A DNA stretch of 64,000 nt from Candidatus Atabeyarchaeum deiterrae (GCA_037310415.1 CP147780.1:416001-480000), one strand, 5' to 3'; shown: positions 39,585 through 50,239, counted from the stretch's first letter. Made by a program: numbers and translations. The notes: generated by a model from the letters alone, not told the origin.

Positions 39585-40841
39585 ATGCCGAAGTACGACT
39601 CTTTCGAGAAGTTCAAACTTGAGAGGGAACTAGAAGCCCTTTCCAATAAGCATGGATTCCACACTGAACTTATCTCTCTCTACGTCCCTCCTGGAAAACA
39701 GCTCAGTGAAGTGACTAACAACTTGAAACAAGAATACGGCACATCAACAAACATAAAGTCGAAGTCCACGCGACAGCATGTACTCGATGCAATAACGACC
39801 ATCACACAAAGACTGAAGATGATGAAGACTGTTCCAGAAAACGGTCTAGCCATATTCTGTGGCGCGATCCCACAGAATGGGCAAGGAACCGAGAAAATGG
39901 AATTGTATCCGATAGTACCGCTGGAGCCAGTAAACATATACATTTACCGCTGTGACAACAAGTTCTACATCGATCCATTAAAAGACATGTTAAAGGAAAC
40001 AGAAACGTACGGCATAATCATGGTGGACCGGAGTGAGGCAGCTTTGGCCTCACTAAGAGGAAAGCATCTTGATGTTGTCAAAAGACTAACCTCTGGAGTC
40101 CCAAGCAAACACACCGCTGGCGGTCAGTCTCAGAGACGATTCGAAAGACTAATTGAGCAGGCAGTCCATGAATTCTTCAAGAGAGTCGGGGGACATGCAG
40201 ATGAGATATTTCTAAACGTGCCTGATCTAAAAGGAATTCTGATAGGAGGAGCTGGTCCAACCAAAGAGAGATTTGCCCAAGGGGGATTCATGAACTATCA
40301 GCTTCAGCAGAAAGTGCTTTCACTTGTCGACACTGGCAACTCGGGGGAAGATGGCATAGAGGAATTGATCGAGAATTCAAGTGAGCTCCTGAAAGGGGTG
40401 CGCTATACTGAAGAAAAGAAACTTGTACAGAGGTTCCTTGAACTCCTTGCAAAGGACACAGGACTTGCAGCTTACGGAGAGAAGGAAGTCCGGGAGCTTC
40501 TTAATCAAAGTACGGTGGATACACTTCTCCTGTCAGAGGCCCTAGATACTGTCAGAGTGACAGTGTCATGTGCCAGCTGTGGATATAAGAGAGAAGAGAC
40601 AATTCGCCAGTCTAATCTTAGCTCATTCCAGCAAACAGCTCAGAGTTCAACTTGTCCTAAGTGCAATTCCCCGCTTGCAGTAACCGAGACAAAGCCGATA
40701 CTAGATGATCTTGCAGAACTGGCTGAAAAGACGAATGCAAAGGTTGAAGTCATATCAACAGAGACTGAAGAGGGTCAGGAGCTAAAGCAAGGATTCGGGG
40801 GCGTGGCTGCCACACTAAGATACCGCCCTGCCAACTTATAA
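39585..40841 (+). CDS. prf1: Peptide chain release factor aRF1
   Basis: NIKS, YRCD, GGQS. Confidence 0.96.
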   Translation: MPKYDSFEKFKLERELEALSNKHGFHTELISLYVPPGKQLSEVTNNLKQEYGTSTNIKSKSTRQHVLDAITTITQRLKMMKTVPENGLAIFCGAIPQNGQGTEKMELYPIVPLEPVNIYIYRCDNKFYIDPLKDMLKETETYGIIMVDRSEAALASLRGKHLDVVKRLTSGVPSKHTAGGQSQRRFERLIEQAVHEFFKRVGGHADEIFLNVPDLKGILIGGAGPTKERFAQGGFMNYQLQQKVLSLVDTGNSGEDGIEELIENSSELLKGVRYTEEKKLVQRFLELLAKDTGLAAYGEKEVRELLNQSTVDTLLLSEALDTVRVTVSCASCGYKREETIRQSNLSSFQQTAQSSTCPKCNSPLAVTETKPILDDLAELAEKTNAKVEVISTETEEGQELKQGFGGVAATLRYRPANL

Positions 40842-40876: not shown

Positions 40877-43379
40877 GTGATTACCATTTCTAAACCAGAA
40901 TTTGGAGAGAAGCATTGGTCCGTTAAGACGGAAGAAGAAATACTGCAGAAGTGGAGAAGCAAGAAGAGCTACTCCTTCGACTTGAAGAATGGGAAGCAGC
41001 CGTTTTCCATTGACACACCTCCACCCTACGCAAGCGGTCGGTGGCACCTCGGTGGGGCAGTACACTACTCACAGATTGACATGATAGCTAGATGCAAGAG
41101 AATGGAAGGCTATGAGGTTCTCTTCCCGATGGGCATCGACCGAAACGGATAAGTCCCCCCCAAGTCGGAGAGACTCCGGATTACCGATCGAGGTTCAGGC
41201 GGAAAAAGAGTTCGGGGTTAAGATGAATGAAACACCCAGAGGGGAGTTCATAGAATTCTGCCACAACTTGCTGGACAAATACGAGGATGACATTTTATCT
41301 ATTTCAAGAAGACTAGGGCTGAGCTGCAATTCCCTGGAGCAGAAAGAAGTGTACAGAACTGACAGCCCCGAATACCGCAGGATAACTCAAGCAACATTCA
41401 TTAAACTTTGGAACATGGGCTTAGTATACGAAGATCGGAGGCCCAACAACTACTGCACGGACTGCGGAACCACAATAGCGGATGCAGAAATAGAGTATAG
41501 CGAAATAGAAACATCATTGAACTACATCAGATTTAGGATCGAGGGATCTAATGAGGAGATCATTATTGCCACTACCAGACCGGAGCTTCTCTGCGCCTGC
41601 GCTTGCGTGTTAGTTCACCCTTCTGACGAGAGATATAAGAAATTTCACAAGAAGACCGCACTAATCCCGATTTATGAAAGGAATGTGCCAATAATAGCTA
41701 ATCCTGCTGCCCAAATGGAGTTTGGAACGGGGGCGGCAATGATCTGTTCGTATGGTGACTACACTGATGTCAGACTCTACAGAGAACTTCAGCTGGCGCC
41801 AGTGGACGCCATAGATCATAACGGGAGAATGACGGAAGCTGCAGGAGAACTTAAAGGACTCAAAATACCTGAAGCAAGAAAAGAGATGGTGGCAAAGCTA
41901 AGACACCAAAGCGCATTGATCAAACAGGAAAGAATAATGCACAGGACACCCGTCTGTTGGCGAACAAGAACCCCCATCGAATTCATTGCAATGTCGGAGC
42001 TATATTTGAAACAATTGGATTTCTTGGGAGAATTAAAGAAGACAATCGACAAAATGGAATTCTATCCCCCACCAAGCAAACACATCCTTTCAAGCTGGAT
42101 TAACTCCGTAAGCGTGGACTGGCCGATAAGCAGGAGAAGATACTACGGTACAGAAATTCCATTGTGGTACTGCCTAAAGTGTGGTAAGCCCGTCGTTCCA
42201 GAACCCGGAGAATACTACCAACCATGGAAGGATGCCCCACCGTTCGTTAAATGCTCCCACTGCGGTGCGAAAGAAGGCTTCAAGGGCGAGGAAAGAACCT
42301 TTGACACATGGTTTGACTCAGGGATAAGTGAACTTCAAATCCTCGGTTATCTAAGAGACGAAGAATCTTTCAAGAAGCTATTCCCTTGTTCAATAAGACC
42401 TCAAGGGAAAGACATAGTCCGGACGTGGTGTTACTATTCAATCCTCAGAACCTACCAGCTCCTGAAGGAACGAGCATTCAAGAAAGTCTGGATAAGCGGG
42501 CATGTAATGGACGACAAAGGGGAAAGAATGTCGAAATCGCGCGGAAACGTAACGTGGCCTACCCCACTAATGGACAAGTACGGCGCAGACGCACTCAGGC
42601 TTTGGGGATGCCTGGAAGCGGGTTTGGGAAGCGATATTAGGTTCTCTGAACCCCGACTCGCAAGCGCTCACAGCTTCTTAACAAAGCTATGGAACATATC
42701 GAAATTCATATCGGCTTTTGCAGATCCTGCAGACAAGGACATAGAACTGCTGGCTTCAGATAGGTGGATACTGTCCGAACTTAATCAGATGGTCAATGAC
42801 GCAATTGAAGGATACCAGAAGTTGGACTTCAATATCCCAGCTACCAAGATACGGACATTCACATGGGAGACTTTTGCCTCTCACTACATTGAAATGGCTA
42901 AGGCGAGGGCATACAATAAGGGGAAGATCTTCCCCGAAGGGCAACAGAGAGGCGCGTGGTACACGCTTCACATGTGCCTTAAGACGATAATAATGGTACT
43001 AGCACCCATATGCCCCTTCATAACTGAAGAAATCTACGGGGGATTGTACTCACAGGAGGAAAGCATACACCACCAGTCTTTTCCAAAACCAAAAAAAGAA
43101 TGGGAAACACCACTCAGAACACTTACTCCTCTCATCATGGAGGCAAACAGCGCAATTTGGAAAACGAAGAAGGACAACAAGCTGCCACTGAATGCCCCAG
43201 TAAAGACGCTTTATCTGCCACAGGAACTCGAACAACTGGGGGAAGATCTCAAAAGAATGCATAATGTGGAAAACATAAGCTTTAAACCACCTGCAAAGAC
43301 ACTAACAGAGAAAGAGAAATACATAGTTGTAAAGATCGATCAAAGCAAGAGACAGAGTCAGATATTCATCAGCATCTGA
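40877..43379 (+). CDS. valS: Valyl-tRNA synthetase, interrupted by a 31-nt insertion (join 40877..41150, 41182..43379)
   Basis: Exon 1: IDTPPPYASGRWHLG...GIDRNG; exon 2: LPIE..., TTRPEL, DWPISR, DTWFDS, RPQGKDI, RMSKS. Start may be ATT at 40886. Confidence 0.9.
41151..41181 (+). other. Putative BHB/BHL-type pre-mRNA intron in valS
   Basis: ACGG/CCGG central helix, AT^A and AT^T bulges, AGTC/GACT inner stem; removal restores GGA-TTA-CCG. Confidence 0.75.
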
Positions 43380-43472: not shown

Positions 43473-43658
43473 GGGCCCGTAGCTCAAAGTGGAGGAGAAT
43501 GAAAGCAAGCTTCCACTGGCAAAGCTTGGCTGGAGCGTTCGGCTGAGCATCTGGGTAACTTTGCCAGATGGGCAACTAACCGAATAGGTTGAGGAAAAAC
43601 CTGAAAAGAACCTTACCCTCGGGGCAGGTCGCGAGTTCGAATCTCGCCGGGCCCACCA
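43473..43658 (+). tRNA. tRNA-Ile(GAT) with three BHB introns (43487-43523, 43547-43576, 43585-43625)
   Basis: Spliced 78-nt cloverleaf GGGCCCG...TTCGG-CTGATAA-CCGAA...CGGGCCC-ACCA. Confidence 0.9.
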
Positions 43659-43687
43659 CTTCTCTATCCAAAAATGTTTGTTGAGTT

Positions 43688-43796
43688 GGGCCGGTAGTTC
43701 AGACTGGAAACCACCTTGCAGTGACTAAGGGTGAACATAAGATACGCCGGCTTCGCAAGCCGGAGGTCGTGGGTTCAAATCCCACCCGGTCCACCA
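43688..43796 (+). tRNA. tRNA-Ala(CGC) with one D-loop intron (~43710-43740)
   Basis: CCGGC-TTCGCAA-GCCGG anticodon arm, G3:U70, CCA; removing 31 nt makes it colinear with the intronless Ala(TGC). Confidence 0.9.
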
Positions 43797-46286: not shown

Positions 46287-46553
46287 ATCTCTGGCACTAC
46301 TCTTGATTTGCAGCAGAGAGACCTAATAACCGATGGATACTCTCTTGACTGCAGTGACGATTTACCGAGATGCAACTCGGGAGGAGCGGTGGAGAACACT
46401 TCTCTCGGGTGAAGGGCACAGTGGGGATCAGCATAGCGGACGTTCCCACAATGACTTGCCACGCATACATTCCACCAAACAGGAAAAGATCGTACAAGCT
46501 GAACAAAGGAGTTCTAACACTATCCGGACCGAGGTTACGAGTAAGGTCTGATA

Positions 46554-49658
<3,105 letters not shown>

Positions 49659-49826
49659 GCAGGCCTGAAAGCCCTCGGTCTGGGTGAATTTAGATCTCCC
49701 ATTTATTGTTCGGCGGGTGGAATTCTGTGCGTGGTGATCTCCTCATTTCTCTTGGACTAGTCAATCCCATGTTTGCCCCCTTGTTGATGGAAATTCTTAT
49801 TTGACATTCCTCGTAAATGTATTCTT

Positions 49827-50239
49827 GGAGTTAGGACGTGGGAGCGCGGCTGCCGGTGCCTTTCTTTCTCTTTGAGGAAGCTAGGTGCTGAGGAAGGTCT
49901 CCCCTCCACCAGACTTCGGTGCAGCGAAAGCTGCGAGGCGAGAGCCTCGCTCCAGGATCAGAAACGACACGTCCACACGTGAAATGACTATGATGCGGTT
50001 GAGGCGATGCTTACAGTGAGCGTCTCCGAGCAGGAGCCAGGGTAACCTAGCTCAATAACCCGCTGAGGATCCTTGTGGGAGCGGTGAAACGGCCTGCCAC
50101 CGAGGAGAAAGCCCAAATAGGCTGTGGATGATGCGTCTGGCTGAACCAGCGGGTAGGGTGAGTAGCTGGATGCCGCAAAGGGTGTTTCGGCGACGAAACA
50201 TCTGGAACAAAAGGGGGCCTACTACCCACACCTGACTCC
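49827..50239 (+). ncRNA. rnpB: RNase P RNA
   Basis: P1 GGAGTTAGG..GTGGG / CCCAC..CCTGACTCC; GAGGAAGGTCTCCC and AACAAAAGGGGGCCTAC P4 strands; TGAAACGGCC, GAGAAAGCCCAAATAGG. Confidence 0.9.

What the first reader, a model, noticed from the sequence alone, without database searches (positions are those of the whole stretch)
41136..41191. Candidate spliced intron in an essential protein-coding gene (valS)
Seen: the ValRS motif GIDRNG|LPIE is split by exactly 31 nt, which creates an immediate TAA and a frameshift. The insert folds as ACGG(41145-48)/CCGG(41176-79) with bulges AT^A and AT^T, inner stem AGTC/GACT and a loose outer stem (TCGA/TCGA). Standard BHB cut positions remove 41151-41181 and give GGA-TTA-CCG in frame. 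The A.G-closed helix matches tRNA-Ile intron 3 (ACCG/CGGG). Known: the established archaeal pre-mRNA BHB intron is in crenarchaeal cbf5; I am not aware of one in an aminoacyl-tRNA synthetase. A homopolymer error in the C7 run would not explain ~10 extra codons or the TAA, which precedes the run. Caveat: an alternative register (CGGA/TCCG) would excise 29 nt and stay out of frame.
Basis: partly seen in the sequence, partly recalled or inferred. Interest (0 to 1): 0.9.

Follow-up and report, generated by a model that had tools for sequence, protein, structure and literature searches.

The report
tRNA-type mini-intron inside valS gene
The only valyl-tRNA synthetase gene of this Asgard archaeon is interrupted by a 31-base insert shaped like an archaeal tRNA intron, and 18 related copies show it must be cut out of the mRNA at exact positions, a kind of mRNA splicing published so far for only one archaeal gene (cbf5).

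Summary
Observation confirmed; interpretation supported, but no RNA read spans the junction.

valS is split at GIDRNG|LPIE by 31 nt (41151-41181). The valS profile runs on without a gap across the two pieces. It is the only valS in a closed 2.76-Mb genome, probably Atabeyarchaeia.

I collected 18 copies of the insert (29-31 nt) from independent assemblies.
- The inner hairpin covaries (0 of 500 shuffles reach the score).
- The intronic CCGG strand is conserved.
- Cutting after the second base of each bulge gives a Leu codon in 18/18 copies, using five different codons. Any other in-frame junction gives a mix of L, I, M and F.
- Both exons are under purifying selection.
- An independent start for the second piece is missing in two lineages, and read-through is blocked in two.

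The motif is relaxed: 3 bp plus an invariant A.G, with the 3' site in an internal loop. A tRNA-Ile intron 2.4 kb away has the same geometry.

The genome encodes two EndA paralogues and RtcB. I verified further introns in glyA, gatE, a radical-SAM gene and, partly, cbf5.

This scan had already noted such mRNA introns in other Asgard genomes and in other genes of this genome. I found no published report.

Confidence 0.85 for endonuclease/ligase splicing.

The parts
40877..41150 (+). valS exon 1: 91 codons to GGA (Gly), plus U41150, the first base of the junction Leu codon
   Evidence: ORF and translation. PRK13208 profile positions 4-88. Codon positions 1+2 are far more conserved than position 3 between lineages.
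41151..41181 (+). 31-nt intron (relaxed BHB type). Retained, it gives an immediate UAA (41150-52) and a +1 frame shift.
   Evidence: Homologous 29-31-nt inserts in 17 other copies.
41182..43379 (+). valS exon 2: UA of the Leu codon, 731 codons and the stop. The spliced product is 823 aa.
   Evidence: PRK13208 profile positions 86-797, 798.8 bits. Intact relatives have open frames of about 800-850 aa.
41145..41148 (+). Central helix, exonic 5' strand ACGG. A41145 faces G41179 as an A.G mismatch.
   Evidence: Invariant in 18 copies. Three Watson-Crick pairs plus A.G.
41149..41151 (+). 5' bulge AUA; predicted cut between 41150 and 41151
   Evidence: AUA or ACA in 18/18 copies. Cutting after its second base gives the Leu junction.
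41152..41175 (+). Intron hairpin: stem AGUC 41152-55 / GACU 41172-75 and its loop
   Evidence: Four of six stem pairs show compensatory changes. Covariation 0.147 against 0.090 +/- 0.010 in shuffles, reached by 0/500.
41176..41179 (+). Central helix, intronic 3' strand CCGG
   Evidence: Conserved in 16/18 copies although it is intronic and its neighbours vary.
41180..41182 (+). 3' bulge AUU, part of a larger internal loop; predicted cut between 41181 and 41182
   Evidence: Here the outer helix starts only after a 2x2 mismatch.
41136..41142 (+). Exon-exon (outer) helix, 5' strand UCGACCG; pairs with 41185-41191
   Evidence: 7 bp (UCGAUCG/CGAUCGA) in 17/18 copies, 99% of cells paired. C41140 breaks one pair in this genome. 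Most intron-less relatives use other synonymous codons here, but a few (L016, L034) carry nearly the same exon sequences.
41185..41191 (+). Exon-exon (outer) helix, 3' strand CGAUCGA
43473..43659 (+). Comparator: multi-intron tRNA-Ile(GAU). Its insert after position 43 has the same A.G-closed helix (ACCG 43579-82 / CGGG 43620-23).
   Evidence: Read. Only the A.G register gives a normal 5-nt variable loop (AGGUC). The all-Watson-Crick register would leave 7 nt.

Best explanation
The 31 nt at 41151-41181 are an archaeal splicing-endonuclease (bulge-helix-bulge type) intron in the valS pre-mRNA. In the transcript, exonic ACGG pairs with intronic CCGG, the intron forms a hairpin, and the two exons pair with each other. 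A heteromeric EndA cuts after the second base of each bulge (41150|41151 and 41181|41182). RtcB joins the exons to give ...AAC GGA UUA CCG... and a normal 823-aa ValRS. Unspliced mRNA ends at UAA after 91 codons. Shown: the insert, its conservation, the structural covariation, the exact junction, and the presence of the enzymes. Inferred: that these enzymes cut and join this RNA.
For: (1) The valS profile runs on without a gap across the insert, and this is the only valS in the one-contig genome.
(2) There are 18 copies from separate assemblies, with introns of 31, 30 or 29 nt at the same site. All database proteins at least 67% identical to exon 1 are 91-98-aa fragments ending GIDRNG. No full-length protein exceeds 68% identity.
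(3) Structure: 88% of cells are paired, against at most 50% when the partners are slid. The covariation score and the count of double changes are reached by 0/500 shuffles. Four of six inner-stem pairs have compensatory changes. The intronic CCGG strand is conserved.
(4) The junction codon under the BHB cut rule is Leu in 18/18 copies (TTA 7, TTG 5, CTG 2, CTA 2, CTC 2). Exon-2 'TC' occurs only with exon-1 'C'. Leu is found in all 24 intact Asgard orthologues in which the motif was located.
(5) Both exons are under purifying selection, while synonymous sites and the intron loop are saturated.
(6) The same A.G-closed geometry occurs in a tRNA-Ile intron of this window.
(7) Two EndA paralogues are present, one lacking the catalytic His by alignment, and RtcB.
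(8) Strict BHB introns with seamless profile continuity occur in glyA, gatE and a radical-SAM gene, and one in cbf5.
Against: No RNA read or contig spans the junction.
The motif is relaxed. The central helix has 3 Watson-Crick pairs plus an A.G. The 3' cut lies in an asymmetric internal loop.
An all-Watson-Crick register (CGGA/UCCG), which RNAalifold prefers, would remove 29 nt and leave the frame broken.
The single-sequence fold is no better than shuffles. Equally relaxed motifs occur at 0.3% of positions.
The central and outer helices never vary, so covariation supports only the inner stem.
The matched GGA...GGA codons with UAA resemble a translational bypass site.
Confidence: 0.85

Rival explanations
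1. Translational bypass, as in phage T4 gene 60. The ribosome takes off at GGA 41147-49, skips 31 nt and lands on GGA 41178-80. No RNA cutting is involved.
For: GGA codons are matched in 17/18 copies. In this genome and 11 others UAA follows directly, and a hairpin follows the take-off site.
Against: Six of 18 copies have CAA, not a stop, after the take-off codon. L081 has GGG at the landing site. The codon after the landing site would be L7/I5/M4/F2, at a residue that is Leu in the intact Asgard orthologues. Gap length varies from 29 to 31 nt. glyA, gatE, the radical-SAM gene and cbf5 have BHB inserts without matched codons. Bypass is unknown in archaea (own knowledge).
Confidence: 0.04
2. 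The endonuclease cuts the all-Watson-Crick register (CGGA/UCCG). That removes 29 nt and leaves the mRNA out of frame, so the element would be a decay or regulatory device rather than a productive intron.
For: RNAalifold chooses the A27-U53 pair of that register. It has four Watson-Crick pairs, against three plus A.G.
Against: It would leave the only valS without a product, yet both exons are under purifying selection. The junction-codon pattern fits only the A.G register. The tRNA-Ile intron with the same ambiguity gives a normal tRNA only in the A.G register. In the productive register both bulges begin with A in all but one copy (L081: GUU), as in the other coding-gene introns I checked, except the 3' bulge of the cbf5 candidate (UAA).
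Confidence: 0.04
3. A split enzyme. A 91-aa N-terminal polypeptide and a separately started C-terminal polypeptide assemble into ValRS.
For: Split genes exist in some archaea (own knowledge). In this genome an ATG at 41112 opens the second frame. G002 and mg73 have AUG at the junction.
Against: G001 and mg74 have no ATG, GTG or TTG between the last upstream stop and the conserved PIEVQAEKEFG block. The next start lies 13 codons inside that block. This model explains neither the covarying hairpin, nor the conserved intronic CCGG, nor the Leu junction codon.
Confidence: 0.03
4. A decaying pseudogene, an assembly or sequencing artefact, or a +1 frameshift that reads through the insert as about 10 extra residues.
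For: The insert contains a C7 run (41155-61). The gene is called as two ORFs.
Against: The same insert is present in 18 copies from independent sources: GTDB genomes, JGI, ENA, NCBI and Logan. This is the sole valS. Both pieces are under purifying selection. G002 and mg74 have stop codons inside the insert in the exon-2 frame. The insert peptide is not conserved.
Confidence: 0.02

Closest known systems
cbf5 pre-mRNA intron of Crenarchaeota (Watanabe 2002; Yoshinari 2006; Yokobori 2009, PMC2738675)
   Same: A short non-self-splicing intron inside a coding sequence. The exon-intron borders form a BHB motif that is often relaxed. The hosts have a heteromeric splicing endonuclease. Yokobori et al. 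link relaxed-motif recognition outside tRNA to that enzyme type.
   Different: The host gene (valS) and the phylum (Asgard) differ. The central helix is closed by an invariant A.G. The intron is fixed across a whole clade (18 copies). The valS intron has no RNA evidence, whereas the cbf5 intron was shown by RT-PCR. As of 2020, cbf5 was described as the only BHB intron reported in an archaeal coding sequence (PMC7714728).
Non-canonical (relaxed BHB / BHL) tRNA introns of archaea, including the tRNA-Ile 43/44 intron of this window
   Same: The same predicted enzyme and cut rule (after the second bulge base). The same A.G-closed 4-position helix and lack of an adjacent outer helix. The likely source organism has introns in 92-95% of its tRNA genes, many at non-canonical positions (PMC11291895).
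   Different: The substrate is an mRNA with no tRNA body to help recognition. The junction must restore a reading frame.
BHB intron in the 5' UTR of HVO_1309 mRNA, Haloferax volcanii (PMC7714728)
   Same: EndA processes an mRNA.
   Different: That intron lies in the untranslated leader, so no reading frame depends on it.
HAC1/XBP1 unconventional mRNA splicing in eukaryotes (own knowledge)
   Same: A small frame-changing intron is removed without a spliceosome, by an endonuclease and (in animals) the RtcB ligase.
   Different: The nuclease is IRE1 acting on twin stem-loops. It is stress-regulated and not related to the BHB motif.
T4 gene 60 translational bypass (own knowledge)
   Same: GGA take-off and landing codons, a stop after take-off, and a hairpin in the gap.
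   Different: The defining features are not conserved among the 18 copies. See the rival explanations.

Membership tests
Strict hBHBh' splicing motif | 4-bp Watson-Crick central helix | tested here: not met
   Three Watson-Crick pairs (C-G, G-C, G-C) plus an A.G that is invariant in 18/18 copies.
Strict hBHBh' splicing motif | Two 3-nt bulges on opposite strands, each flanked by a helix | tested here: not met
   The 5' bulge AUA/ACA is clean. The 3' site lies in a 2x5 internal loop, and the outer 7-bp helix starts two positions further out.
Relaxed BHB (HBh' / BHL) endonuclease intron | At least one canonical bulge next to the central helix and an inner helix; cuts after the second bulge base give a functional junction | tested here: met
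   The junction codon is Leu in 18/18 copies through 5 codons. The inner helix covaries. The valS profile runs on without a gap across the join.
Relaxed BHB (HBh' / BHL) endonuclease intron | The host encodes a broad-specificity (heteromeric or epsilon-type) EndA and an RNA ligase | tested here: met
   Two EndA paralogues (238 aa with Y/H/K; 198 aa without the His by alignment) and RtcB at 582 bits. The subunit arrangement is inferred, not shown.
Relaxed BHB (HBh' / BHL) endonuclease intron | The intron is absent from the mature RNA | not testable with these tools
   The one RNA-library contig covers 41652-41891 only. No spliced-form protein was found in the databases.
cbf5 intron family | Located in cbf5 of Desulfurococcales/Sulfolobales | tested here: not met
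   The host gene is valS of an Asgard archaeon. It works like the cbf5 intron but is not a member of that family.
Gene-60-type translational bypass | Stop codon directly after the take-off codon, and matched landing codon | tested here: not met
   CAA instead of a stop in 6/18 copies. GGG at the landing site in L081.
Gene-60-type translational bypass | The resumed codon encodes the conserved residue | tested here: not met
   It would give L7/I5/M4/F2, where the intact Asgard orthologues have Leu.

The most novel reading that the evidence does not exclude
In this Asgard lineage the tRNA-splicing enzymes act as a general, obligatory mRNA-splicing system. It covers essential translation genes (valS, gatE, cbf5) and metabolic genes. 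Splicing of valS is rate-limiting or regulated, so that ValRS supply is tied to tRNA-processing capacity. That would be a prokaryotic precedent for splicing-dependent expression of core genes in the closest relatives of eukaryotes.
Probability: 0.2. Interest if true: 0.9.

Novelty: new member of a known kind. Interest (0 to 1): 0.72.

Why it matters
Published work knows endonuclease-type introns inside an archaeal coding sequence only for cbf5 of Crenarchaeota. Here an essential aminoacyl-tRNA synthetase of an Asgard archaeon cannot be made without removing such an intron. The intron has been kept across a whole clade while its sequence drifted to saturation.

Together with the other split genes in this genome, this indicates that mRNA splicing by the tRNA-splicing machinery is routine in some Asgard lineages. 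That bears on:
- how introns spread from tRNA genes to mRNAs;
- genome annotation, since valS is currently called as two ORFs and completeness tools may miscount it;
- ideas about RNA processing in the archaeal ancestors of eukaryotes.

The A.G-closed relaxed motif also makes a testable prediction about the substrate range of the Asgard endonuclease.

Tried and rejected
RNA evidence: the one run search gave wetland metatranscriptomes. Laying four runs gave a single 240-nt contig at 41652-41891 and nothing across the junction. This says nothing either way about splicing.

Single-sequence folding: z = +0.6, uninformative.

Genome-wide scan for BHB motifs that join two long open frames: the relaxed definition gives tens of thousands of hits and cannot list the coding-gene introns. 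Only strict hits were usable (radical SAM, gatE, glyA, a pcm candidate). I gave up on a genome-wide count.

First alignment of six copies: covariation was not distinguishable from shuffles. It needed the 18-copy set.

Search for full-length or RNA-derived spliced proteins close to exon 1: none above 68% identity. This is weak evidence, because long proteins can crowd out relatives.

The intron sequence has no second copy in the window at up to 3 mismatches, so it is not a repeated mobile element there.

Literature: no paper found on BHB introns in Asgard coding genes.

Not done: mtnP and RuBisCO-like leads (loci L062 and L063 were fetched but not analysed); position of the crenarchaeal cbf5 intron relative to the one seen here.

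Full report
**Observation.** The + strand reads ...CCG ATG GGC ATC GAC CGA AAC GGA TAA GTCCCCCCCAAGTCGGAGAGACTCCGGA TTA CCG ATC GAG.... The ORF 40877-41152 ends GIDRNG*. LPIEVQAEK... continues in frame +1 to 43379. The NCBIfam valS model PRK13208 matches the first piece at profile positions 4-88 and the second at 86-797 (798.8 bits, above its cut-off). The two pieces therefore abut on the profile and the extra DNA is an insertion. Removing 41151-41181 gives GGA UUA CCG and an 823-aa protein. Intact relatives have open frames of about 800-850 aa.

**Organism and copy number.**
- The window is C1:416001-480000 of a one-contig genome of 2,756,679 bp.
- A whole-genome profile search finds only this valS. 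The other hits are IleRS, LeuRS and MetRS.
- The nearest named relative of the protein is a Promethearchaeati (Asgard) MAG, and the RNA runs that share words with it are from wetland.
- This fits, but does not prove, one of the complete Atabeyarchaeia genomes. For those genomes, 92-95% of tRNA genes were reported to carry introns, many at non-canonical sites. That paper does not mention coding-gene introns (PMC11291895).

**The fold alone is weak evidence.** The MFE z-score is +0.6. In my own scan of the genome, a motif as relaxed as this one occurs at 0.3% of fixed position/length combinations. The definition was at least 3 of 4 central pairs, a 3-nt bulge and a 4-bp inner stem. The case therefore rests on comparison.

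**Comparative evidence.**
- The two genomes of the same family carry a 31-nt insert at the same site. The 24 intact Asgard orthologues in which the motif was located read G[IVL]DRNGLP[IV]E without interruption.
- A pattern scan of metagenome contigs gave three more copies.
- A protein search with exon 1 showed that all proteins at least 67% identical to it are 91-98-aa fragments ending GIDRNG, with or without a short tail. Several lie on long contigs. I fetched twelve of them.
- No full-length protein exceeds 68% identity to exon 1.
- Altogether there are 18 copies, with introns of 31 nt (14 copies), 30 nt (3) and 29 nt (1), and aRF1 as the conserved upstream neighbour.

**Structure.**
- On the 18-row alignment (A2), 88% of cells are paired, against at most 50% when the 3' partners are slid.
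- The covariation score is 0.147 against 0.090 +/- 0.010 in shuffles, reached by 0/500. There are 11 cells with double changes against 3.6 expected, also 0/500.
- Four of the six inner-stem pairs show compensatory changes, for example U-A, U.G and C-G at one pair.
- The intronic CCGG strand of the central helix is conserved in 16/18 copies, although the neighbouring intron positions vary.
- The exon-exon helix UCGAUCG/CGAUCGA is paired in 99% of cells. Most intron-less relatives use other synonymous codons there, but a few (L016, L034) have nearly the same exon sequences. This is at most weak support.
- The central and outer helices do not vary, so covariation speaks only for the inner stem.

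**The junction.** Under the BHB rule the cut falls after the second base of each bulge. The junction codon is then the last exon-1 base (U or C) plus the first two exon-2 bases. It is Leu in 18/18 copies: TTA 7, TTG 5, CTG 2, CTA 2, CTC 2. Exon-2 'TC' occurs only together with exon-1 'C'. This is the pattern of a single codon under purifying selection, although its bases lie 29-31 nt apart in the DNA. The other in-frame removal, GGA to GGA, would give L7/I5/M4/F2.

**Selection and the rival readings.**
- Between the deep lineages, codon positions 1+2 are 70-95% identical in both exons. Position 3 is 43-60% identical and the intron loop 22-60%. Both pieces are therefore translated and the intron is old, which excludes a pseudogene.
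- Eighteen independent assemblies exclude an artefact.
- Read-through by frameshift is blocked by stops inside the insert in G002 and mg74. An independent start for the second piece is absent in G001 and mg74.
- Translational bypass is the only non-splicing model that fits this genome's GGA-UAA...GGA-UUA. It fails in the wider set. Six copies have CAA after the take-off codon, one lacks the landing GGA, gap length varies, and the resumed codon would not be conserved.

**The relaxed geometry.**
- The productive register has an A.G opposite pair closing the central helix, and a 3' site in an internal loop. An all-Watson-Crick register (CGGA/UCCG) exists and is preferred by RNAalifold, but it removes 29 nt and stays out of frame.
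- The tRNA-Ile(GAU) gene at 43473-43659 has the same ambiguity. ACCG/CGGG with A.G gives CCGAA|AGGUC, a normal 5-nt variable loop. CCGA/UCGG would leave 7 nt (read).
- In the productive valS register both bulges start with A in all but one copy (L081 has GUU at the 3' bulge). The same holds for the glyA, gatE, radical-SAM and pcm inserts. The cbf5 candidate has AGA and UAA.

**Machinery and context.**
- The genome encodes two EndA paralogues, each with both Pfam endonuclease domains. They are 33% identical, and one lacks the catalytic His by alignment.
- It also encodes RtcB.
- The heteromeric, broad-specificity enzyme type is the one linked to the cbf5 intron and to relaxed motifs (PMC2738675).

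**Other split genes.** Following leads from earlier notes of this scan, I verified three further coding-gene introns by profile continuity:
- glyA: C1:652709-652749, profile positions 3-50 and 52-403.
- gatE: C1:2222226-2222266, profile positions 2-86 and 88-628.
- An AmmeMemoRadiSam radical-SAM gene: C1:919007-919059, profile positions 4-83 and 86-329.

All three have strict 4-bp helices. cbf5 is also split, with profile positions 7-71 and 70-320. A 41-nt strict BHB candidate there joins GHGGTL|DP.

**Literature and earlier notes.** In the library searched, BHB introns inside archaeal coding sequences are described only for crenarchaeal cbf5, plus a 5'-UTR case in Haloferax. Nothing turned up on Asgard coding genes. 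Earlier notes of this scan report the same kind of intron in other Asgard genomes, some with RNA support that I did not check.

**Verdict.** This is a real feature: a relaxed BHB-type pre-mRNA intron in the sole valS, very probably removed by EndA and RtcB at 41150|41151 and 41181|41182. It is a new member of a known kind. RNA proof is still lacking.

Noticed in passing
G000:C1:395677-395717 (outside the window): cbf5 is split too. TIGR00425 matches at profile positions 7-71 and 70-320, 35 nt apart. A 41-nt strict BHB candidate (CUCU/AGAG, bulges AGA/UAA, 4-bp outer helix) joins GHGGTL|DPRVTG at the catalytic Asp motif. I did not compare its position with the crenarchaeal cbf5 intron.
   Followed up: partly
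L059:709-749 (+), L060:2226-2266 (-), L061:1007-1059 (-): glyA (41 nt), gatE (41 nt) and an AmmeMemoRadiSam radical-SAM gene (53 nt) each carry a strict BHB insert. The family profile continues seamlessly across each predicted junction.
   Followed up: yes
G000:C1:321676-321704 (+): A 29-nt strict BHB candidate with an 8-bp inner stem. Removing it gives ...GQTISAPHMVVIM..., which looks like the protein-L-isoaspartate methyltransferase motif (own knowledge). Not checked against a profile.
   Followed up: no
L062 (C1:937001-939500) and L063 (C1:2661501-2665000): Earlier notes report BHB inserts in mtnP (38 nt) and a RuBisCO-like gene (28 nt). I fetched the loci but did not analyse them.
   Followed up: no
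window 43473-43659 and 43688-43796: Two tRNA genes carry several inserts each: tRNA-Ile(GAU) and a tRNA with G3.U70 and anticodon CGC (Ala). ARAGORN misses both, and Rfam scores only the second, weakly. Standard callers under-count tRNAs here.
   Followed up: partly
window 46549-49663 and 49834-50233: The 23S rRNA match spans 3115 nt for a 2987-position model. The RNase P RNA match spans 400 nt for 288 positions. Both may carry inserts.
   Followed up: no
window 39585-40841: The gene upstream of valS (418 aa) appears by synteny to be aRF1. That neighbour is conserved in the related contigs that reach far enough upstream, so aRF1-valS is a stable gene pair in this clade.
   Followed up: partly
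G000:C1:215530-216246 (-) and C1:625319-625915 (+): Two EndA paralogues of 238 and 198 aa, 33% identical. The shorter one lacks the catalytic His by alignment. This suggests a heteromeric endonuclease whose subunits are both two-domain proteins.
   Followed up: partly
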